From: Escherichia coli
GTDB lineage: Bacteria > Pseudomonadota > Gammaproteobacteria > Enterobacterales > Enterobacteriaceae
Assembly: GCF_003334315.1 (NCBI RefSeq)
Contig: NZ_QOWR01000004.1
Length of the DNA stretch: 64,000 bases
Direction: 5' to 3' (one strand)
Shown here: piece after piece, positions 2,074 through 39,860 of the stretch
Numbering within the stretch: position 1 is the first letter of the stretch
How the letters are laid out: every line of letters starts with the position of its first letter
Made by a program: the position numbers and the translations under genes
The notes under the pieces: generated by a model
Database searches by the model: none
Seen by the model: the letters and a program-made list of their open reading frames with translations, nothing else
What the model was told of the DNA's origin: nothing

Positions 2074-2769
2074 GTGATAACGCGTGATTTCTTGATGAAT
2101 GCCGATTGTAAAACGGCATTTGGTGCCATTGAAGAATCACTCTTATGGTCAGCAGAGCAACGGGCGGCTTCGCTGGCGGCGACGCTGGCTTGTCGACCTG
2201 ATGAGGGACCGGTGTGGATCTTCGGTTATGGATCGTTGATGTGGAATCCGGCACTGGAGTTTACCGAGTCGTGCACCGGTACACTGGTTGGATGGCATCG
2301 CGCGTTTTGCCTGCGCCTGACCGCCGGGCGCGGGACTGCGCACCAGCCGGGACGGATGCTTGCACTGAAAGAGGGCGGACGCACTACAGGCGTCGCCTAT
2401 CGACTGCCAGAAGAGACGCTGGAGCAGGAACTAACCCTGTTGTGGAAGCGCGAGATGATTACCGGCTGTTATCTGCCAACCTGGTGTCAGCTTGATCTTG
2501 ATGATGGATGCACAGTAAACGCCATTGTGTTTATTATGGACCCGCGACATCCAGAATATGAATCTGACACTCGCGCTCAGGTCATCGCGCCGTTGATTGC
2601 GGCGGCGAGCGGTCCGCTGGGAACCAACGCACAATACCTGTTTTCACTGGAACAGGAGCTTATCAAACTGGGAATGCAGGACGATGGGCTGAATGATTTG
2701 CTGGTATCGGTAAAAAAACTGCTGGCGGAGAATTATCCGGATGGTGTGTTACGGCCGGGATTCGCCTGA
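2074..2769 (+). CDS. chaC: glutathione-specific gamma-glutamylcyclotransferase ChaC
   Basis: ORF 2038..2769; ChaC-like sequence (..WIFGYGSLMWNP..) from GTG at 2074 gives the 231-aa form; start could also be ATG 2053. Confidence 0.85.
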   Translation: MITRDFLMNADCKTAFGAIEESLLWSAEQRAASLAATLACRPDEGPVWIFGYGSLMWNPALEFTESCTGTLVGWHRAFCLRLTAGRGTAHQPGRMLALKEGGRTTGVAYRLPEETLEQELTLLWKREMITGCYLPTWCQLDLDDGCTVNAIVFIMDPRHPEYESDTRAQVIAPLIAAASGPLGTNAQYLFSLEQELIKLGMQDDGLNDLLVSVKKLLAENYPDGVLRPGFA

Positions 2770-2787
2770 GTAAACTTCCCTCATAGT

Positions 2788-2804
2788 GGGGCGTCAGACG
2801 CCCC
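2788..2804. terminator. GC-rich hairpin GGGGCGTCAGACGCCCC between convergent chaC and ychN (probable bidirectional terminator)
   Basis: perfect inverted repeat located between the two stop codons. Confidence 0.5.
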
Positions 2805-2812
2805 CTCAAACA

Positions 2813-3166
2813 TTAAAATGTGAGCACTTTATCGGCTGACAGCGTCCATTGCGCCAGTTCCACAAGAGTACCGATTTCCACCCCATCAATAAGAGGAAGT
2901 GTGCTAATCCCGCGCCCGTCGGTACAGGTTTTGCACAATTTCACCGGTACATTCTGAGCGGTAAGGATCTCCAGCATTTGCTGAATGTTGTAGCCTTCCC
3001 CTGGTTTTTGCCCGCGCAACCCGGCTGTGACCGCATCAGACATGAGGAACAGACGCAGATCCAGATTGCTCTCCTGCTCTCGTAACGCAATGGCCAGCCG
3101 CAAGCTGTTAAACAAGGATTCGCTCCCGTAAGGTGCGCCATTGGCAACGATCACGATTTTTTGCAT
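2813..3166 (-). CDS. ychN: DsrE/DsrF-like family protein YchN
   Basis: 117-aa ORF MQKIVIVANGAPYGSESLFNSLRLAIALRE... Confidence 0.92.
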   Translation of the reverse strand: MQKIVIVANGAPYGSESLFNSLRLAIALREQESNLDLRLFLMSDAVTAGLRGQKPGEGYNIQQMLEILTAQNVPVKLCKTCTDGRGISTLPLIDGVEIGTLVELAQWTLSADKVLTF

Positions 3167-3183
3167 TATTTACTCCTGTATTC

Positions 3184-3287
<104 letters not shown>

Positions 3288-3315
3288 TTGCCAGTAATCG
3301 TTATTCTTAAAGGAT

Positions 3316-4746
3316 ATGGTTTTTCATTTTTTACCGGAAGTTACCGACGTTTTGAGCCGTTTCGTTCCTCGCATTATTTCGTTTTATTTACTCTTGCTGG
3401 CGGCAGGCGGTACAGCTAACGCACAATCTACCTTCGAGCAAAAAGCGGCAAATCCCTTTGATAATAACAATGATGGTCTGCCGGATTTAGGCATGGCACC
3501 TGAAAATCATGATGGGGAAAAACACTTTGCTGAAATTGTGAAAGATTTCGGCGAAACCAGTATGAATGATAACGGGCTGGATACTGGCGAGCAGGCAAAA
3601 GCTTTCGCATTGGGAAAAGTCCGCGACGCGCTTAGTCAACAGGTTAATCAGCACGTAGAGTCCTGGCTATCACCGTGGGGAAATGCCAGTGTTGATGTCA
3701 AAGTGGATAACGAAGGTCATTTTACCGGCAGTCGTGGAAGCTGGTTTGTGCCGTTACAAGATAATGATCGTTATCTCACCTGGAGCCAGCTTGGTCTTAC
3801 TCAGCAGGATGATGGGTTGGTGAGCAATGTGGGCGTTGGGCAACGCTGGGCGCGCGGCAACTGGCTGGTGGGTTATAACACTTTTTATGACAACTTGCTG
3901 GACGAAAATCTTCAGCGAGCGGGCTTTGGTGCCGAAGCGTGGGGCGAATATTTGCGACTATCGGCAAACTTTTATCAGCCATTTGCTGCATGGCATGAAC
4001 AGACAGCCACGCAGGAACAACGGATGGCGCGCGGGTACGACCTGACAGCCCGGATGCGCATGCCGTTCTATCAACACCTCAATACCAGTGTCAGCGTAGA
4101 ACAGTATTTTGGTGATCGTGTTGATTTGTTTAACTCTGGTACGGGTTATCACAATCCCGTCGCGTTGAGTCTGGGATTAAATTACACCCCTGTGCCATTA
4201 GTCACTGTGACGGCCCAGCATAAACAGGGTGAAAGTGGCGAGAATCAAAATAACCTCGGGCTGAATCTTAATTACCGCTTTGGTGTACCGCTCAAAAAAC
4301 AACTTTCTGCGGGCGAGGTTGCCGAAAGTCAGTCGTTACGTGGCAGTCGCTATGATAATCCGCAGCGAAATAATCTACCGACTCTTGAGTACCGACAGCG
4401 AAAAACGTTAACGGTGTTTCTGGCGACACCGCCGTGGGATCTAAAACCTGGCGAAACAGTGCCGCTGAAATTACAAATCCGCAGTCGTTACGGTATTCGG
4501 CAACTGATTTGGCAGGGCGATACGCAGATATTAAGTTTGACGCCAGGCGCACAAGCCAACAGCGCGGAGGGCTGGACGCTGATCATGCCTGACTGGCAGA
4601 ACGGGGAAGGGGCGAGCAATCACTGGCGATTGTCGGTGGTGGTGGAAGATAACCAGGGGCAGCGTGTCTCCTCCAATGAGATCACGCTAACGCTTGTCGA
4701 ACCGTTCGACGCATTGTCAAACGACGAACTGCGCTGGGAACCGTAA
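3316..4746 (+). CDS. ychO: invasin/intimin-family outer-membrane protein YchO (short form without long passenger domain)
   Basis: 476-codon ORF with signal-like N-terminus and invasin beta-domain-like region; true start uncertain (ATG 3316 or in-frame TTG 3352). Confidence 0.85.
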   Translation: MVFHFLPEVTDVLSRFVPRIISFYLLLLAAGGTANAQSTFEQKAANPFDNNNDGLPDLGMAPENHDGEKHFAEIVKDFGETSMNDNGLDTGEQAKAFALGKVRDALSQQVNQHVESWLSPWGNASVDVKVDNEGHFTGSRGSWFVPLQDNDRYLTWSQLGLTQQDDGLVSNVGVGQRWARGNWLVGYNTFYDNLLDENLQRAGFGAEAWGEYLRLSANFYQPFAAWHEQTATQEQRMARGYDLTARMRMPFYQHLNTSVSVEQYFGDRVDLFNSGTGYHNPVALSLGLNYTPVPLVTVTAQHKQGESGENQNNLGLNLNYRFGVPLKKQLSAGEVAESQSLRGSRYDNPQRNNLPTLEYRQRKTLTVFLATPPWDLKPGETVPLKLQIRSRYGIRQLIWQGDTQILSLTPGAQANSAEGWTLIMPDWQNGEGASNHWRLSVVVEDNQGQRVSSNEITLTLVEPFDALSNDELRWEP

Positions 4747-5397
4747 TCAGAAAATGCGCTCCTGATGCACCCATACCGCTGCTTCCACGCGAGACTTGAG
4801 CTTCATTTTCTTCAGCATGTGCTTGACGTGCACTTTTACTGTGCTTTCGGTGATATCCAGGCGGCGGGCAATCATCTTGTTCGGCAAACCCTGGGCAATC
4901 AGCTTGAGAATATCGCGCTCGCGTGGGGTTAACTGGTTAACATCGCGCTCAGTAGTGGCACGGTTAGCGCGCAAGCTGGCGGCCAGAACAGGCGTTAATG
5001 CTTCGCTTAATACCATTTCGCCAGCAGCTGCCTGATGCAATGCTTTCAGCAGATCTTCCGGTTCCATATCTTTTAACAGATAGCCATCCGCGCCGCGTTT
5101 CAGTGCGGTGACCACATCTTCTTCATGGTTAGAGACGCTGAATACCACAATGCGCCCTGAGAGGGACTTTTCGCGCAGTTTATCCAGCGTTTCCAGACCG
5201 TTCATGCCGGGCATATTGAGATCTAACAGGATCAGATCGGGATCAAGAGACTCCGCCAGTTCAATACCCTGTTCGCCATTACTCGCTTCGCCAACCACGG
5301 TGATATCTGGTGCCATACTGATAAGCTGTTTTACGCCAGTTCGCAGCATCGGGTGATCGTCAATCAGCAGGATAGTAGCCGGTTCCTGATTACTCAT
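4747..5397 (-). CDS. narL: nitrate/nitrite response regulator NarL
   Basis: 216 codons starting [25 protein letters not shown]..., receiver plus LuxR-type HTH; track ORF is 5'-extended; start overlaps narX stop by 8 bp. Confidence 0.96.
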
Positions 5398-7186
5398 GGG
5401 TATCTCCTTGGACGTCTGTGAAAGTTTTTTCGGGAATAAAGGTGACCACCACTTCGGTGCCACCTGATTCACGACGGCGGACGCGGCAATCGCCTCGTAA
5501 ACTTTGCGCACGGTCGCGCATTATTATCATGCCGTAGTGATTGCTGCGGATGGCATTTTCAGGCACGCCGCAGCCGTTATCCTGGACGGTCAGTTTGACC
5601 TGATTATCGTTTTGCGCCACCGTCACCACGACCTCACTCGCTTGCGAATGTTTGAGGGCGTTACTTAATGCCTCACGGGCAATTTGCAACAAGTGGATTG
5701 CCTGATGTGAAGGCACCAGACGAGGCGGCAATTGATAATCCAGCTTCACCGGGAAGCCAAATTTGGCGCTGTACTCTTCGCAACTCGCTTCCAGCGCCGG
5801 ACGTAATCCAGGCTCGGTGAGCTGCAAGCGGAATGTGGTGAGCAATTCACGCAACTGCGCCCAGGATGCATTCAGTTCGTTACGGATCTGACTTAACAGT
5901 TCGCGGCTGCTTTCTGGCAGCGCATCGCCCTGCATCTGTAAACAACTCACCTGCATCTTCATGCAAGAGAGAGATTGGGCAATAGAATCATGCAGTTCGC
6001 GCGCAATGGTGGCACGCTCTTCCATCACGATCAACTGTTGCTGACGTTCCTGATGCCGATCCAGCGCCAGCGTGGCGGTGAGTTGTTCAACCAGGGTATC
6101 CACCAGTTGTTGTTGATCATGGCTAAGATGACGCCCCTGCGGTAGGGTCGCCAGCAAAATACCGTACTGCGTATGTGAGTCAGCCAGCCGCCACTTCAGG
6201 GTTGTGCCGCGATCGCCAACGGGTAATACGCCGCGCGGGCAGAGCTGGCAGCCTTTATCATCACAAGTCATATCTGGCTGGCAGGTAAACTCCTGATGAT
6301 TCTCTTCATCATCAGTGTCATACACCCGCAATTCGATATCACGTAGCAGGGTTAAATTCTGTAAGCCGTTGAGTACAGGTGACAGGCGTTCACACAGCGG
6401 GGCGCGGGAATGCAAACGGCGGTTAGCCTGCCATAAAAAAGAGAGGATCTGATTTTTATGCTCCAGCCCGGCGGTTTTCTCCTGAACCCGCTGCTCAAGT
6501 ACGGCATAACTTTCGGCCAGTTCTGCAGACATATTGTTCAATGCAGTTCCAAGCATCGCCATTTCGTTGCGCCCGCTGATGTTCGCGCGTTGGGTAAAAT
6601 CGCGATGACTGACGGCACTCGCCATTGCCAGCAGTTGCCGCCACGGTTGTAGCAGTCGCGCCCGCAACCAGATAATAGTGAACACCAGTAAAAGTGCCAT
6701 AAATACCGCCATTACCCGATGGACCAGTACCACTGTCTCAATGCGCATTTCCGTGGTGCGGTCAAAACCAGATACCAGCTGATCAAGCCCGGCAACAAAC
6801 TGGCTGACATCCGCTGACACCGTTTCGCGGTTTTGTGCACGCATCAGTGCAGGGATCAGTTCATTACGCCAGTAATCTTGTAAACCCTGTAATTGCGCCA
6901 GTTGTCCGTCTCGTTCTGCTGCTCGAGTCAACTCGGCGCTAAATGCCGTTTGTTCCATCTCTTTAATTAAGGGCTTGTCTTTCTCGCTTAATGGCACTGC
7001 TGCCAACAGACGGTAACTTTGCATGCGCAGCGATCCCGCTTTGTTGATCGCATGGGCGCTGCCCTGAACGCCTTGCACCAGCCAGCCAGAAACCGCCATC
7101 CCTGCCAGTCCAATAGCAGTAGAAAGCAACACAATAAGCGCAACCTGATTAACCAGGGTGAGCGGAGAGAGACAACGTTTAAGCAT
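5390..7186 (-). CDS. narX: nitrate/nitrite sensor histidine kinase NarX
   Basis: 598-aa [24 protein letters not shown]..., two TM segments, HAMP and histidine kinase regions. Confidence 0.96.
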
Positions 7187-7282
7187 GTAAACCTCTTCCT
7201 TCAGGCTTTAAATGAGCAATAACCTTAATGAATGTGACGATACATTCTGGAATGGCAGTATTCTCGGCTATTGGCTGAAGTA

Positions 7283-7309
7283 TACCCATACCCGGAAAGA
7301 GTTACTCCT
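7283..7309 (+). promoter_or_regulatory. NarL heptamer-like motifs (TACCCAT, TACTCCT) upstream of narK
   Basis: matches to the NarL heptamer consensus TACYYMT at 7283-7289 and 7303-7309. Confidence 0.5.
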
Positions 7310-7451
7310 TATTTGCCGTGTGGTTAGTCGCTTTACATCGGTAAGGGTAGGGATTTTACAGCACCGTGAAAAATCTCATAATTTTTATGAAATCACTGTA
7401 CTCACTATGGGTAATGATAAATATCAATGATAGATAAAGTTATCTTATCGT

Positions 7452-7465
7452 TTGATTTACATCAA
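7452..7465 (+). promoter_or_regulatory. FNR box TTGAT-N4-ATCAA in narK promoter
   Basis: perfect FNR consensus TTGATttacATCAA about 60 bp upstream of the narK ATG. Confidence 0.8.
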
Positions 7466-7524
7466 ATTGCCTTTAGCTCCAGACACTAAGGTGGCAGACA
7501 TCGAAACGAGTATCAGAGGTGTCT

Positions 7525-8916
7525 ATGAGTCACTCATCCGCCCCCGAAAGGGCTACTGGAGCTGTCATTACAGATTGGCGACCGGAAGATCCTGCGTTCT
7601 GGCAACAACGCGGTCAACGTATTGCCAGCCGCAACCTGTGGATTTCCGTTCCCTGTCTGCTGCTGGCGTTTTGCGTATGGATGTTGTTCAGCGCTGTTGC
7701 GGTGAACTTACCGAAAGTCGGTTTTAATTTTACGACCGATCAGCTATTTATGTTGACTGCGCTGCCTTCGGTTTCTGGCGCGTTATTACGTGTTCCATAC
7801 TCCTTTATGGTTCCTATCTTCGGTGGTCGTCGCTGGACGGCGTTCAGCACCGGTATTCTGATTATTCCTTGCGTCTGGCTGGGTTTTGCCGTGCAGGATA
7901 CCTCCACGCCTTATAGCGTCTTCATCATCATCTCTCTGCTATGCGGCTTTGCTGGCGCGAACTTCGCATCCAGTATGGCAAACATCAGCTTCTTCTTTCC
8001 GAAACAGAAGCAGGGTGGCGCGCTGGGTCTGAATGGTGGTCTGGGAAACATGGGCGTCAGCGTCATGCAGTTGGTTGCTCCGCTGGTGGTATCACTGTCG
8101 ATTTTCGCAGTATTTGGTAGCCAGGGCGTCAAACAGCCGGATGGGACTGAGCTGTATCTGGCGAATGCGTCCTGGATATGGGTGCCGTTCCTTGCCATCT
8201 TCACCATTGCGGCGTGGTTTGGCATGAACGATCTTGCTACCTCGAAAGCCTCCATCAAGGAGCAGTTGCCGGTACTCAAACGGGGTCATCTGTGGATTAT
8301 GAGCCTGCTGTATCTGGCAACCTTCGGCTCCTTCATCGGCTTCTCCGCGGGCTTTGCAATGCTGTCAAAAACGCAGTTCCCGGATGTTCAGATTCTGCAA
8401 TACGCTTTCTTCGGGCCGTTTATTGGTGCGCTGGCGCGTTCTGCAGGTGGTGCATTATCTGACCGTCTGGGCGGAACTCGTGTCACGCTGGTGAACTTTA
8501 TTCTGATGGCGATTTTCAGCGGCCTGCTGTTCCTGACCTTACCGACTGACGGGCAGGGCGGAAGCTTCATGGCGTTCTTCGCGGTCTTCCTGGCGCTGTT
8601 CCTGACAGCTGGGCTGGGTAGTGGTTCCACTTTCCAGATGATTTCAGTGATCTTCCGTAAACTGACAATGGATCGCGTGAAAGCAGAAGGGGGTTCTGAC
8701 GAACGTGCGATGCGTGAAGCGGCAACCGACACGGCGGCGGCGCTGGGTTTCATCTCTGCGATTGGCGCGATTGGTGGCTTCTTTATCCCGAAAGCGTTTG
8801 GTAGCTCGCTGGCATTAACGGGTTCGCCAGTCGGCGCAATGAAGGTATTTTTGATTTTCTATATCGCCTGCGTAGTGATTACCTGGGCGGTATATGGTCG
8901 GCATTCTAAAAAATAA
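7525..8916 (+). CDS. narK: nitrate/nitrite antiporter NarK (MFS)
   Basis: 463 codons from ATG 7525 (MSHSSAPERATGAVITDWRPEDPAFWQQRG...); 12-TM MFS-like. Confidence 0.96.
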   Translation: MSHSSAPERATGAVITDWRPEDPAFWQQRGQRIASRNLWISVPCLLLAFCVWMLFSAVAVNLPKVGFNFTTDQLFMLTALPSVSGALLRVPYSFMVPIFGGRRWTAFSTGILIIPCVWLGFAVQDTSTPYSVFIIISLLCGFAGANFASSMANISFFFPKQKQGGALGLNGGLGNMGVSVMQLVAPLVVSLSIFAVFGSQGVKQPDGTELYLANASWIWVPFLAIFTIAAWFGMNDLATSKASIKEQLPVLKRGHLWIMSLLYLATFGSFIGFSAGFAMLSKTQFPDVQILQYAFFGPFIGALARSAGGALSDRLGGTRVTLVNFILMAIFSGLLFLTLPTDGQGGSFMAFFAVFLALFLTAGLGSGSTFQMISVIFRKLTMDRVKAEGGSDERAMREAATDTAAALGFISAIGAIGGFFIPKAFGSSLALTGSPVGAMKVFLIFYIACVVITWAVYGRHSKK

Positions 8917-21577: not shown

Positions 21578-21600
21578 CATCCGTATCGGTGTTATCCACG

Positions 21601-21632
21601 AAACGGCGTTGAGCAATCGACGCCGTTTTTTT
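21601..21632 (+). terminator. galU rho-independent terminator
   Basis: AAACGGCGTTGAGCAATCGACGCCGTTT hairpin followed by T-run. Confidence 0.8.
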
Positions 21633-21670
21633 ATAGCTTATTCTTATTAAATTGTCTTAAACCAGACAAT

Positions 21671-21697
21671 AAAAAATCCCGCCGATGGCGGGATTTT
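21671..21697 (-). terminator. hns rho-independent terminator
   Basis: AAAATCCCGCCATCGGCGGGATTTTTT on minus strand just downstream of hns stop. Confidence 0.8.
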
Positions 21698-21720
21698 AAG
21701 CAAGTGCAATCTACAAAAGA

Positions 21721-22134
21721 TTATTGCTTGATCAGGAAATCGTCGAGGGATTTACCTTGCTCATCCATTGCTTTTTTGATTACAGCTGGAGTACGGCCCT
21801 GGCCAGTCCAGGTTTTAGTTTCGCCGTTTTCGTCAACGTAGCTATATTTTGCCGGACGCTGAGCACGTTTAGCTTTGGTGCCAGATTTAACGGCAGCAAG
21901 GCTATTCAGCAGTTCGTTCGGGTCAATACCGTCAGCGATCAGCATTTCGCGATATTGCTGCAGTTTACGAGTGCGCTCTTCAACTTCAGCAGCAGCCGCG
22001 CTTTCTTCTTCGCGACGTTCGTTAACAACAACTTCTAATTTTTCCAGCATTTCTTCCAGCGTTTCAAGTGTACATTCTCTTGCCTGCGCACGAAGAGTAC
22101 GGATGTTGTTCAGAATTTTAAGTGCTTCGCTCAT
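21721..22134 (-). CDS. hns: nucleoid-associated protein H-NS
   Basis: 137-aa [44 protein letters not shown]... Confidence 0.97.
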
Positions 22135-23405: not shown

Positions 23406-23637
23406 TTCGTTTTACGCACTTCTTCCGGGCTATATACCCTTCTCGGCAGTTTTTTAACGCCGCTATACGCCTCACAGGGCTCTTAAGCACCGACGTTGAC
23501 TTGTGACCTGTAAAGTACAATATCCCTGTGTTTAGGCGTTATACATCGTCGCAAATATGATGAAGGCTAATGCTGTCGGTTTATGGAAAAGTTGCTTTGG
23601 GTAAACAAAAAATACGGCCCCAGAAGGGCAATGCCGT

Positions 23638-24534
23638 TCACTTAAGAGGAGCGGCACTATGTTTCACAGGATAACGGGTTTTTGATATCTTAACCGACCT
23701 CGGCCTTGATGGTCGGGGGCGTTTTGTTATGAACACCACTTCCAGAGCACCCCGAAGATGCTCCAGTCGTTTCGGGATGGTCCCTGGTGACGCCGTGTTT
23801 CCCAGCTCTATCATTTCTGATGCGATATTCTTCCACGCAGGCAGTAGCCAGTGGCGGTTACAACCCTTCTGGTTCAGCGTCAGCAGCAGGTCTTCGCTGT
23901 AAAAAAGTTTATCAAACAACGTAATAGAGTTATCCGGGATGGTGGCGAGCATGGAGTGGGCCAGCACAGTTTCGCTCTGCCGGTAAGGTGCGGTCACGGC
24001 ATTCAGCAGAATGTGACTTCCCAGGTTCATTAAGGCCACCAGACGCATAACCGGGTAGGCGTTCTGCCGCTTAGTGGATGTGTTGGCAGACCCATAATAT
24101 TCACGCAGCTCGGGTTTATCAGGTGTCCTGAACTGTGCGCCATCAATGGCAAAAAGTTGCAGGCCGTGCCAGTCATCCTTCAGGTAACGTTCCGCGCCCC
24201 TGTCTGTGCGGTCTGGCGGAAGAGCCATTCCACTGGGGCGGCCCCCACGCGCTGACGCGCCTGGGTGACAGCGCTGCGGGCCAGCAGGTTCATCCCCGCT
24301 TCGCCATCCGCGCTCAGGTTCAGACGGCGAACAACATCGGTAATTGGCTCATTGCACCACCATCCAGATAACCATGTCCCCCGGTAAACGACGGCGGCGA
24401 ACGGTCGCATGAGCAGAAAGCGTCAGGCAGTGTTGTATCCACTCGGTGGGAAGGTGTTCTGCAAATAGTTGTGCAGAGGGCGGAGGCATAAGCGGATGGT
24501 CACTGAAATCGAGCAGATCATTGAGAAGTGGCAT
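23638..24534 (-). pseudogene. insZ: IS4-family transposase pseudogene (three frameshifted fragments, C-terminus missing)
   Basis: consecutive minus ORFs 24349..24534, 24180..24410 and 23638..24228 in different frames, each resembling successive parts of the IS4 transposase (e.g. TVRRRRLPGDMVIWMVV, SAVTQARQRVGAAPVEWLFRQTAQ, LFAIDGAQFRTPD); gene name from memory of K-12 annotation. Confidence 0.7.
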
Positions 24535-24617
24535 AAGAAAACGGCTCCCTGTTGTGGAAGCCGTTATAGTGCCTCAGTTTAAGGATCGGTCAACTAATCC
24601 TTAACTGATCGGCATTG
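23640..24617 (-). mobile_element. truncated IS4-family insertion sequence remnant (left end present, right end missing)
   Basis: IS4-type terminal repeat (reverse complement AATGCCGATCAGTTAAGGATTAGTTGACCGATCC) at about 24580-24617, about 80 bp before the transposase-like start; transposase similarity ends near 23640, no second inverted repeat seen. Confidence 0.75.
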
Positions 24618-24657
24618 CCCAGAAGGGGCCGTTTATGTTGCCAGACAGCGCTACTGA

Positions 24658-34781: not shown

Positions 34782-34790
34782 AAACAATAA

Positions 34791-34815
34791 GGGCTGACAG
34801 TTGTCAGCCCTTTTT
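34791..34815. terminator. bidirectional terminator between oppF and yciU
   Basis: GGGCTGACAGTTGTCAGCCC hairpin flanked by A-run and T-run. Confidence 0.75.
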
Positions 34816-34833
34816 CACGCTAAAAGCGATTAT

Positions 34834-36974: not shown

Positions 36975-36980
36975 ATGTAC

Positions 36981-37001
36981 TGGGCACCATTGCGGTGCCC
37001 A
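36981..37001. terminator. hairpin between yciY and kch (TGGGCACCATTGCGGTGCCCA)
   Basis: 7-bp GC-rich stem between convergent stops. Confidence 0.5.
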
Positions 37002-37028
37002 ATAAGTTTACTCTTCCGTCTTTAAACT

Positions 37029-39821: not shown

Positions 39822-39828
39822 GCAGAAA

Positions 39829-39858
39829 GTCAAAAGCCTCCGATCGGAGGCTTTTGAC
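39829..39858. terminator. bidirectional terminator between tonB and yciA
   Basis: perfect palindrome GTCAAAAGCCTCCGATCGGAGGCTTTTGAC. Confidence 0.85.
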
Positions 39859-39860
39859 TA

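What the first reader, a model, noticed from the sequence alone, without database searches (positions are those of the whole stretch)
4744..4749. Convergent ychO and narL stop codons directly abut
The ychO TAA (4744-4746) and the reverse-complement narL TGA (4747-4749) are adjacent with no intergenic base. Neither gene can have a 3'-UTR terminator outside the other's coding sequence, which implies transcript overlap or termination inside the opposing gene, and possible transcriptional interference between the narXL regulator operon and ychO.
Basis: seen in the sequence. Interest (0 to 1): 0.3.

Follow-up and report, generated by a model that had tools for sequence, protein, structure and literature searches.

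The report
ychO and narL stop codons touch
Two E. coli genes that face each other, ychO and narL, end on adjacent bases with no spacer, an arrangement already in the public annotation and already mapped by published RNA studies, so it is real but ordinary.

Summary
The ychO stop TAA (4744-4746, + strand) is followed directly by TCA (4747-4749), the reverse complement of the narL stop TGA. RefSeq annotates it this way, and the 50-nt junction is identical in 5405 of 5424 matching E. coli records.

- Adams et al. 2021 list a bicyclomycin-sensitive (Rho-dependent) termination region on the narL strand, 218 nt past narL and antisense to ychO (window ~4529).
- ExcludonFinder 2025 lists ychO-narL among 165 convergent overlapping-transcript pairs of MG1655.

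My own analysis adds four points:
- There is no terminator hairpin and no conserved embedded element at the junction.
- The C-rich, G-poor stretch that Rho would need sits 80-160 nt past the narL stop.
- In 62 species with this gene pair, the gap is -4 in 23, 0 in 12 and 1 to 11 nt in 19.
- YchO's last ~12 residues are unconstrained, so its reading frame simply runs up to narL.

Species without ychO beside narL mostly have a GC-rich hairpin there instead. Transcriptional interference remains untested and would probably be one-sided, narXL acting on ychO. Verdict: a known kind, largely already documented, of low interest.

The parts
3352..4746 (+). ychO coding sequence (inverse autotransporter, 464 aa, TTG start as annotated; an upstream ATG at 3316 would give 476 aa)
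   Evidence: ORF list. RefSeq annotation of the matching strain. Pfam IAT_beta matches residues 64-341. tblastn aligns the product to its end in about 60 species.
4708..4743 (+). Last 12 codons of ychO (DALSNDELRWEP), an unconstrained tail that fills what would otherwise be the spacer
   Evidence: After the conserved ..TEP[LF].. motif, the YchO tail varies in sequence and length across 41 species, while the NarL tail [10 protein letters not shown] is conserved in nearly all Enterobacteriaceae loci (it differs in Serratia and Rouxiella).
4744..4746 (+). ychO stop codon TAA
   Evidence: Read directly from the sequence; it is the first in-frame stop.
4747..4749 (-). narL stop codon TGA (TCA on the + strand)
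   Evidence: Read directly from the sequence. The translation ends ...VWVHQERIF*.
4747..5397 (-). narL coding sequence (216 aa), identical to MG1655 narL at every base
   Evidence: Annotation. An ungapped comparison with MG1655 shows 22 mismatches over ychO plus narL, all of them in ychO.
5390..7186 (-). narX coding sequence, upstream partner of narL in the narXL operon; it overlaps the narL start by 8 nt
   Evidence: ORF list and annotation.
4589..4666 (-). C-rich, G-poor stretch of the narXL transcript 80-160 nt past the narL stop; candidate Rho loading (rut) site
   Evidence: This 78-nt window has 34 C and 14 G, a C/G ratio of 2.43. That is above the 99th percentile (2.25) of all 78-nt windows on both strands of the 64-kb window. 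The region is largely unpaired in the centroid fold.
4529..4529 (-). Published peak coordinate of the Rho termination region for transcripts leaving narL (MG1655 1274961); resolution is coarse because it rests on 800-nt coverage windows
   Evidence: Adams et al. 2021, Supplementary file 2. The coordinate was mapped through NC_000913.3 and an ungapped alignment.

Best explanation
This is a fully compacted convergent gene junction, not a dedicated regulatory device.

Shown:
- YchO's functional part ends about 40 nt before narL.
- Its last ~12 codons are unconstrained.
- Its reading frame runs until the first stop, which lies against the narL stop.

Shown in other species:
- In many relatives the two stops share two bases (CTAA, TTAA or CTAG, a 4-nt overlap).

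Inferred:
- The 4-nt overlap looks like the older state.
- The E. coli and Salmonella state differs from it by a 4-nt gain.

Because there is no spacer, there is no hairpin terminator. narXL transcripts run past the narL stop, become untranslated, and expose a C-rich stretch at about 4589-4666. Rho then ends them roughly 100-220 nt into the antisense of ychO. The Rho dependence is shown by published bicyclomycin data. The identity of the rut site is my inference.

ychO is weakly expressed. I infer that its transcripts end in the same way, or by decay, inside the antisense of narL. The resulting short antisense overlap produces some double-stranded RNA over ychO, probably with little effect on NarL.
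For: Sequence and annotation:
- The stops abut.

No intrinsic terminator:
- The terminator-like scan found 8 sites against 5.2 +/- 2.8 in shuffles, none at the junction.
- The two read-through RNAs fold no better than shuffles (z = 0.17 and 0.49).
- Rfam gave no match.
- Synonymous variability in narL's last 30-40 codons (0.64-0.76) is at or above the gene mean of 0.665, so no embedded conserved element shows up there.

Rho:
- The C/G ratio reaches 2.43, above the 99th percentile of the window, 80-160 nt past the narL stop.
- Adams et al. 2021 give a Rho score of 10.58 and p = 5e-14 at 1274961 (-), antisense to ychO. With bicyclomycin, downstream coverage is 63% of upstream, against 6% without it.

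Overlap:
- ychO-narL is in the MG1655 excludome list.
- p19-captured dsRNA is 26-87 RPM over ychO and 2-10 RPM over narL.

Evolution:
- Across 62 species loci the gap is -4 in 23, 0 in 12, 1-11 in 19 and 21-46 in 5. Three more show stop loss with 48-54 nt of overlap.
- The YchO tail is variable and the NarL tail conserved.
- Most of the 15 loci without ychO next to narL have a GC-rich hairpin right after the narL stop, most clearly Dickeya, Hafnia, Acerihabitans and L071.
- The five neighbouring convergent spacers of this window that I folded all hold strong hairpins.
Against: - The Rho coordinate is coarse, because it rests on 800-nt windows. The data come from one condition (LB, OD 0.5) and from MG1655 rather than this strain.
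- No discrete Term-seq 3' end is reported in narX, narL or ychO in that paper's tables, so the exact ends are unknown.
- The C-rich peak is no stronger than the rest of antisense ychO in 38 of 60 species, so it may be a by-product of coding rather than a selected rut site.
- Nothing is known about where ychO transcripts end.
- The long conservation of ychO-narL adjacency and tightness could also reflect a selected coupling.
Confidence: 0.8

Rival explanations
1. The junction is a selected excludon. Convergent transcription and RNase III cleavage of the overlapping RNAs would make ychO (an adhesin/invasin) and narXL (the nitrate regulator) expression mutually exclusive. Most plausibly, narXL read-through would repress ychO.
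For: - The pair is listed among the 165 convergent excludons of MG1655.
- dsRNA is captured over ychO.
- Antisense RNA over ychO is roughly equal to sense RNA and roughly doubles in rnc mutants, on my inferred reading of the columns.
- Adjacency and tightness are kept in 62 species out to Serratia and Rouxiella.
- As a class, excludon pairs show higher synteny and less single-cell co-expression.
Against: - No experiment addresses this pair.
- Rho cuts the antisense RNA short within about 220 nt.
- dsRNA levels over ychO are mid-range and those over narL are low.
- There is no synonymous constraint at the narL 3' end.
- The position of the ychO stop drifts freely, including stop losses.
- E. 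albertii has deleted ychO altogether.
- Tightness is what deletion bias alone would produce.
Confidence: 0.12
2. Each gene has an intrinsic (hairpin plus U-tract) terminator embedded in the other's coding sequence. Candidates are the - strand hairpin at 4433..4410 for narXL and the + strand hairpin at 4815-4831 for ychO.
For: - The consensus scan lists both sites.
- Lillo & Krakauer 2007 report predicted intrinsic terminators for some genes in convergent overlaps of E. coli.
- ExcludonFinder reports that TransTermHP predicts overlapping terminators for 146 of its 165 convergent pairs; per-pair results are not given.
Against: - The number of terminator-like sites is within the shuffle expectation.
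- The stems are short, and in the - strand candidate the U-run is separated from the stem by AACG.
- The folds are not better than shuffles.
- With bicyclomycin, 63% of coverage continues over the next 800 nt, a span that contains the 4433..4410 site.
- No Term-seq 3' end is listed for these genes.
- There is no synonymous conservation around 4815-4831.
Confidence: 0.05
3. The abutment is an annotation artefact: the true ychO ends earlier or lies in another frame, which would leave a real spacer.
For: - The last ~12 residues of YchO are not conserved.
- Residues 342-464 have no Pfam match.
- Older annotation (ychP) used a different start.
Against: - The stop is simply the first in-frame stop of a frame supported by alignment over residues 1-464 or 25-463 in about 60 species.
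- The older ychP annotation has the same end, directly against narL (1274401/1274402).
- Translation has nowhere else to stop.
Confidence: 0.02

Closest known systems
Short convergent (tail-to-tail) CDS overlaps of the CTAA/TTAA/CTAG/TTAG type (Lillo & Krakauer 2007, PMC2174442)
   Same: Two genes on opposite strands end against each other. 23 of 62 species have exactly this 4-nt shared-stop form at ychO-narL.
   Different: In E. coli the stops abut (TAA|TCA) rather than overlap, so strictly this is a zero-gap pair. It differs from the 4-nt overlap form by 4 nt.
Convergent excludons (E. coli MG1655 excludome, ExcludonFinder 2025, PMC12288877)
   Same: Neighbouring opposite-strand genes whose transcripts overlap at the 3' ends. 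ychO-narL is named in their Table 1.
   Different: The defining consequence, mutually exclusive expression, has not been shown for this pair. The mean spacer of E. coli excludons is 95 nt, whereas here it is 0.
Rho-dependent termination of untranslated or antisense transcription downstream of a stop codon (Adams et al. 2021, PMC7815308)
   Same: Bicyclomycin-sensitive loss of coverage on the narL strand inside ychO. A C-rich, G-poor, poorly structured RNA lies upstream of the end.
   Different: No sharp 3' end has been mapped, and the rut site is inferred from composition only.
Bidirectional intrinsic terminators between convergent genes (for example the tonB-yciA spacer at window 39822-39860)
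   Same: Same genomic situation: two genes converge and both transcripts must end.
   Different: Those spacers are 39-144 nt long and hold a strong GC-rich hairpin, flanked by A and T runs in the clearest cases. ychO-narL has no spacer and no such hairpin.

Membership tests
Convergent overlapping or abutting gene pair | Two protein-coding genes on opposite strands with their 3' ends facing each other | tested here: met
   ORFs and annotation.
Convergent overlapping or abutting gene pair | The coding sequences share at least one base | tested here: not met
   The gap is exactly 0 in E. coli. A 4-nt overlap is present in 23 of 62 other species.
Excludon | Transcripts of the two neighbouring genes overlap | not testable with these tools
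   Published: ychO-narL is listed in the MG1655 excludome, meaning overlap in at least 50% of 58 RNA-seq sets. dsRNA reads over ychO support it.
Excludon | Expression of one gene lowers expression of the other (mutually exclusive expression) | not testable with these tools
   I found no data for this pair. Only class-level single-cell statistics exist.
Rho-dependent terminator | Termination is relieved by the Rho inhibitor bicyclomycin | not testable with these tools
   Published: Rho score 10.58, p = 5e-14 at 1274961 (-), equal to window 4529.
Rho-dependent terminator | C-rich, G-poor, weakly structured untranslated RNA upstream of the termination zone | tested here: met
   C/G ratio of 2.43 at 4589-4666 on the - strand, above the 99th percentile of the window. 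The stretch lies downstream of the narL stop. The fold has a z-score of 0.17 and the stretch is largely unpaired in the centroid.
Bidirectional intrinsic terminator | GC-rich hairpin flanked by an A run and a T run between the two stop codons | tested here: not met
   There is no spacer, no such site in the scan, and the folds are not better than shuffles. The neighbouring spacers do have such hairpins.
Inverse autotransporter (YchO) | IAT_beta barrel domain (Pfam PF11924) | tested here: met
   Residues 64-341, E = 4.9e-103.

The most novel reading that the evidence does not exclude
The zero-spacer ychO-narL junction, kept tight from E. coli out to Serratia and Rouxiella, might be a selected one-way coupling. 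narXL read-through, limited by Rho, would supply an antisense RNA over the ychO 3' end and so hold down this adhesin/invasin. The level of Rho activity, or of narXL transcription under nitrate, would then set ychO expression.
Probability: 0.08. Interest if true: 0.4.

Novelty: already known. Interest (0 to 1): 0.13.

Why it matters
It matters little beyond housekeeping.

- It is a clean, invariant example of a convergent pair with no room for a hairpin terminator.
- narXL's transcript end is set by Rho inside the neighbouring gene.
- The comparative series (4-nt overlap, abutment, small gaps, stop-loss extensions, and hairpins where ychO is absent) illustrates how such junctions drift.

It becomes interesting only if ychO and narXL expression turn out to be coupled through the overlap.

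There is also a practical point. ychO deletion mutants could disturb the 3' end of narXL. The APEC ychO mutant had pleiotropic effects, and a term search of that paper found no mention of nitrate or nar genes and no discussion of polar effects.

Tried and rejected
- **Rfam scan of 2500-7600 at E <= 1:** no match.
- **Embedded intrinsic terminators:** the scan was within shuffle expectation and the folds were unremarkable, so I rejected them as the main mechanism.
- **Conserved element hidden in the narL 3' end:** the synonymous-site profile is flat.
- **Selected rut site in ychO:** the C-rich peak sits at a shared position of about 90 nt. It is not stronger than the rest of antisense ychO in most species. 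This is inconclusive.
- **Supplements with nothing for these genes:** the SMRT-Cappable-seq paper and the operon mRNA-decay paper.
- **Supplements not held:** the Dar & Sorek Rho 3'-end paper, the 3'-UTR valve paper and ExcludonFinder.
- **APEC ychO paper (PMC4787180):** a term search found no mention of nitrate or nar genes and no discussion of polar effects.
- **My own error:** I first folded neighbouring spacers with coordinates from strain 504239. Those were wrong because the window carries about 175 and about 1000 extra bases. I redid them correctly.
- **Mis-assigned ychO frame:** rejected.

Full report
**Observation.** The window reads ...gaa ccg TAA TCA gaa aat... at 4738-4755. TAA at 4744-4746 closes the + strand ORF that ends at 4746. 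TCA at 4747-4749 is the reverse complement of the TGA that closes the - strand ORF beginning at 4747.

RefSeq gives the same picture. In strain 504239, collinear with the window over this region and 100% identical across the 601-nt junction query, ychO is 3352-4746 and narL is 4747-5397 in window coordinates. In MG1655 NC_000913.3, ychO is 1273784-1275178 and narL is 1275179-1275829. The older annotation under the name ychP also ended directly against narL, at 1274401/1274402.

The 50 nt around the junction are identical in 5405 of 5424 matching E. coli records and present in 5422 of 5426 complete genomes.

**The genes.**
- YchO carries the inverse-autotransporter barrel domain (Pfam IAT_beta, residues 64-341, E = 4.9e-103). 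It aligns over nearly its full length with the product of a gene convergent with narL in about 60 other species.
- narL here is base-for-base identical to MG1655 narL. All 22 differences from MG1655 over ychO plus narL lie in ychO, with no indel.

**Comparison across species.** I fetched 80 narL loci, one per species, and located both stops in each. Sixty-two loci have ychO convergent with narL, spanning the Enterobacteriaceae plus Serratia, Rouxiella and Mangrovibacter.

| Distance between the two stop codons | Species loci |
|---|---|
| -4 (stops share two bases: CTAA, TTAA or CTAG) | 23 |
| 0 | 12 |
| 1 to 11 nt | 19 |
| 21 to 46 nt | 5 |
| -48 to -54 (ychO stop lost; ORF runs into the antisense of narL) | 3 |

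- The -4 form is the one found in the most distant relatives (Serratia, Rouxiella, Mangrovibacter), which is why I take it as the likely older state.
- The 0 form, seen in E. coli, Salmonella arizonae and diarizonae, Yokenella and others, differs from it by 4 nt. Yokenella reads TAACTA, which looks like a duplicated CTAA. The direction of change is my inference.
- NarL's tail [10 protein letters not shown] is conserved in nearly all Enterobacteriaceae loci and differs in Serratia and Rouxiella. The last 12-16 residues of YchO, after a conserved ..TEP[LF].. motif, vary freely in sequence and length. The conserved part of YchO therefore ends about 40 nt before narL, and the rest of the frame occupies what would otherwise be a spacer.
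- In the 15 loci without ychO next to narL that I examined, the narL stop is in most cases followed by a GC-rich hairpin. The clearest are Dickeya, Hafnia (AAAAAGCCCGC...GCGGGCTTTTTT), Acerihabitans and L071.
- Inside this window the other core-genome convergent junctions have spacers of 39-144 nt. The five I folded each hold a strong hairpin: 2770-2812, 21578-21721, 34782-34833, 36975-37028 and 39822-39860. ychO-narL is the exception.

**Where transcription ends: sequence evidence.**
- A consensus scan of 2500-7600 found 8 terminator-like sites against 5.2 +/- 2.8 in shuffles. None is at the junction, and the nearest are weak: - strand 4433..4410 and + strand 4815-4831.
- The RNA that continues past narL (4746 down to 4380) and the RNA that continues past ychO (4747-5050) fold no better than shuffled sequence (z = 0.17 and 0.49).
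- Rfam has no match.
- Synonymous variability in the last 30-40 codons of narL, across 51 species, is 0.64-0.76 against a gene mean of 0.665. No conserved element is hidden there.
- The narXL-sense RNA does become strikingly C-rich and G-poor 80-160 nt after the stop. The 78-nt window 4666->4589 has 34 C and 14 G, a ratio of 2.43, above the 99th percentile (2.25) of all such windows in the 64 kb. That is the composition Rho needs.
- The peak sits at about the same place (~90 nt) in many species. It exceeds the rest of antisense ychO in only 22 of 60, so it may be a by-product of YchO's codons.

**Where transcription ends: published evidence.**
- Adams et al. 2021 (PMC7815308, Supplementary file 2) list Rho termination regions from DirectRNA-seq with and without bicyclomycin in LB. 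One entry is position 1274961, - strand, 'antisense ychO'. Coverage upstream/downstream was 101/6 without the drug and 649/408 with it, giving a Rho score of 10.58 and p = 5.07e-14. That is 218 nt beyond narL's last base, window 4529.
- With Rho inhibited, 63% of the coverage continues through the next 800 nt. This argues against an efficient hairpin terminator in that stretch.
- Their tables hold no other entry for narX, narL or ychO, so no sharp 3' end was called.
- ExcludonFinder (PMC12288877) lists ychO-narL among 165 convergent pairs whose transcripts overlap in at least half of 58 MG1655 RNA-seq sets.
- Huang et al. 2020 (PMC7373196, Table S1b) report p19-captured double-stranded RNA of 26-87 RPM over ychO (listed as ychP) against 2-10 RPM over narL.
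- Their Table S1c gives, on my reading of the columns as sense/antisense pairs for WT, rnc-14 and rnc-38, 8.6/5.5, 9.9/10.7 and 6.4/9.8 for ychO, and 72.5/1.6, 76.9/0.86 and 27.8/2.1 for narL.
- Taken together, ychO is weakly expressed and carries about as much antisense as sense RNA, while narL carries almost no antisense RNA.

**Mechanism.** The best-supported account is a compacted convergent junction. With no spacer there is no hairpin. narXL transcripts pass the stop, become untranslated, expose the C-rich stretch, and are ended by Rho within roughly 100-220 nt, inside the antisense of ychO. The Rho dependence is published; the rut assignment is mine. How the weak ychO transcripts end is unknown. 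I infer Rho or decay inside the antisense of narL, where the first 78 nt have a C/G ratio of 1.6. The tightness is what deletion bias would produce once no spacer element is needed, and the drifting ychO stop, including stop losses, fits neutral wandering.

**Rivals.**
- A selected excludon, probably narXL acting on ychO, remains possible but is untested.
- Embedded hairpin terminators are unlikely.
- Mis-annotation is excluded.

**Comparison with what is known.**
- Short convergent overlaps of the CTAA/TTAA/CTAG/TTAG type are a described class. The consequence that terminators must sit in the partner's coding sequence was already spelled out, together with a count of 58 convergent overlaps in E. 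coli (PMC2174442).
- Transcript overlap for this very pair is published, and so is the Rho region.
- The pair fails the test for a bidirectional intrinsic terminator.
- It meets the compositional test for a Rho site.
- It meets only the first of the two defining features of an excludon; the second is untested.

**Verdict.** The cross-species series is a small new addition. Interest is low. The most novel reading still open is a conserved one-way coupling of ychO to narXL read-through, which I put at under 10%.

Noticed in passing
L004 4652-5326 (Escherichia albertii NBRC 107761); corresponds to window 3333-4602 missing: E. albertii has a clean ~1270-bp deletion of ychO. It keeps only the last 144 nt of the gene next to narL, including most of the C-rich stretch. 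This joins narL to the ychN-ychO intergenic region and to ychN, which is co-directional with narL. Only one genome was seen.
   Followed up: partly
L022 4652-4694, L035 and L037 4652-4697 (Kluyvera species): In three Kluyvera species the ychO-narL gap is 43-46 nt and holds an inverted repeat (GTGACAGG..CCTGTCAC). This may be a hairpin acquired in an otherwise spacer-less junction.
   Followed up: no
L055 4601-4654 (Entomohabitans), L054 4604-4651 (Shimwellia), L016 3006-3058 (a MAG): The ychO stop is lost (for example TTA to TTG in L055). The ORF then extends 48-54 nt into the antisense of the conserved narL 3' end.
   Followed up: partly
window 2919-2935 (+), inside ychN (2813-3166, - strand): There is an exact match to the sigma-54 binding motif TCGGTACAGGTTTTGCA. 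It is reported as intragenic site IA11, oriented towards ychO about 405 nt downstream (PMC4591121; located in the window). It could be a sigma-54 promoter for ychO.
   Followed up: partly
window 3316 versus 3352: An in-frame ATG at 3316 would give a 476-aa YchO. RefSeq uses the TTG at 3352 (464 aa), and older annotation (ychP) used a start about 141 nt further in (417 aa). The true start is unsettled.
   Followed up: no
window 16593-16749, 23628-24618, and beyond 42673: Compared with strain 504239, the window has about 155-175 extra bases in the tyrT tRNA region. It also has a ~990-bp insert between tdk and adhE that carries a 196-aa ORF (23638..24228, - strand). Similarity ends just after ompW, where that strain carries a prophage integrase.
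   Followed up: no
MG1655 1274961 row and 1272857 row of Adams et al., Supplementary file 2 (window ~4529 and ~2425, - strand): With bicyclomycin, coverage upstream of the ychO-antisense site (mostly narL) rises 6.4-fold, from 101 to 649. A second Rho region on the same strand lies antisense to chaC, past ychN, even though the chaC-ychN spacer has a good hairpin. This suggests Rho also limits - strand transcription further upstream.
   Followed up: no
L084 46342-46927 (strain 504239 prophage; not in the window): Two hypothetical prophage genes converge with an annotated 11-nt overlap. It is the only other junction with a gap of 0 or less in that 50-kb annotation.
   Followed up: no
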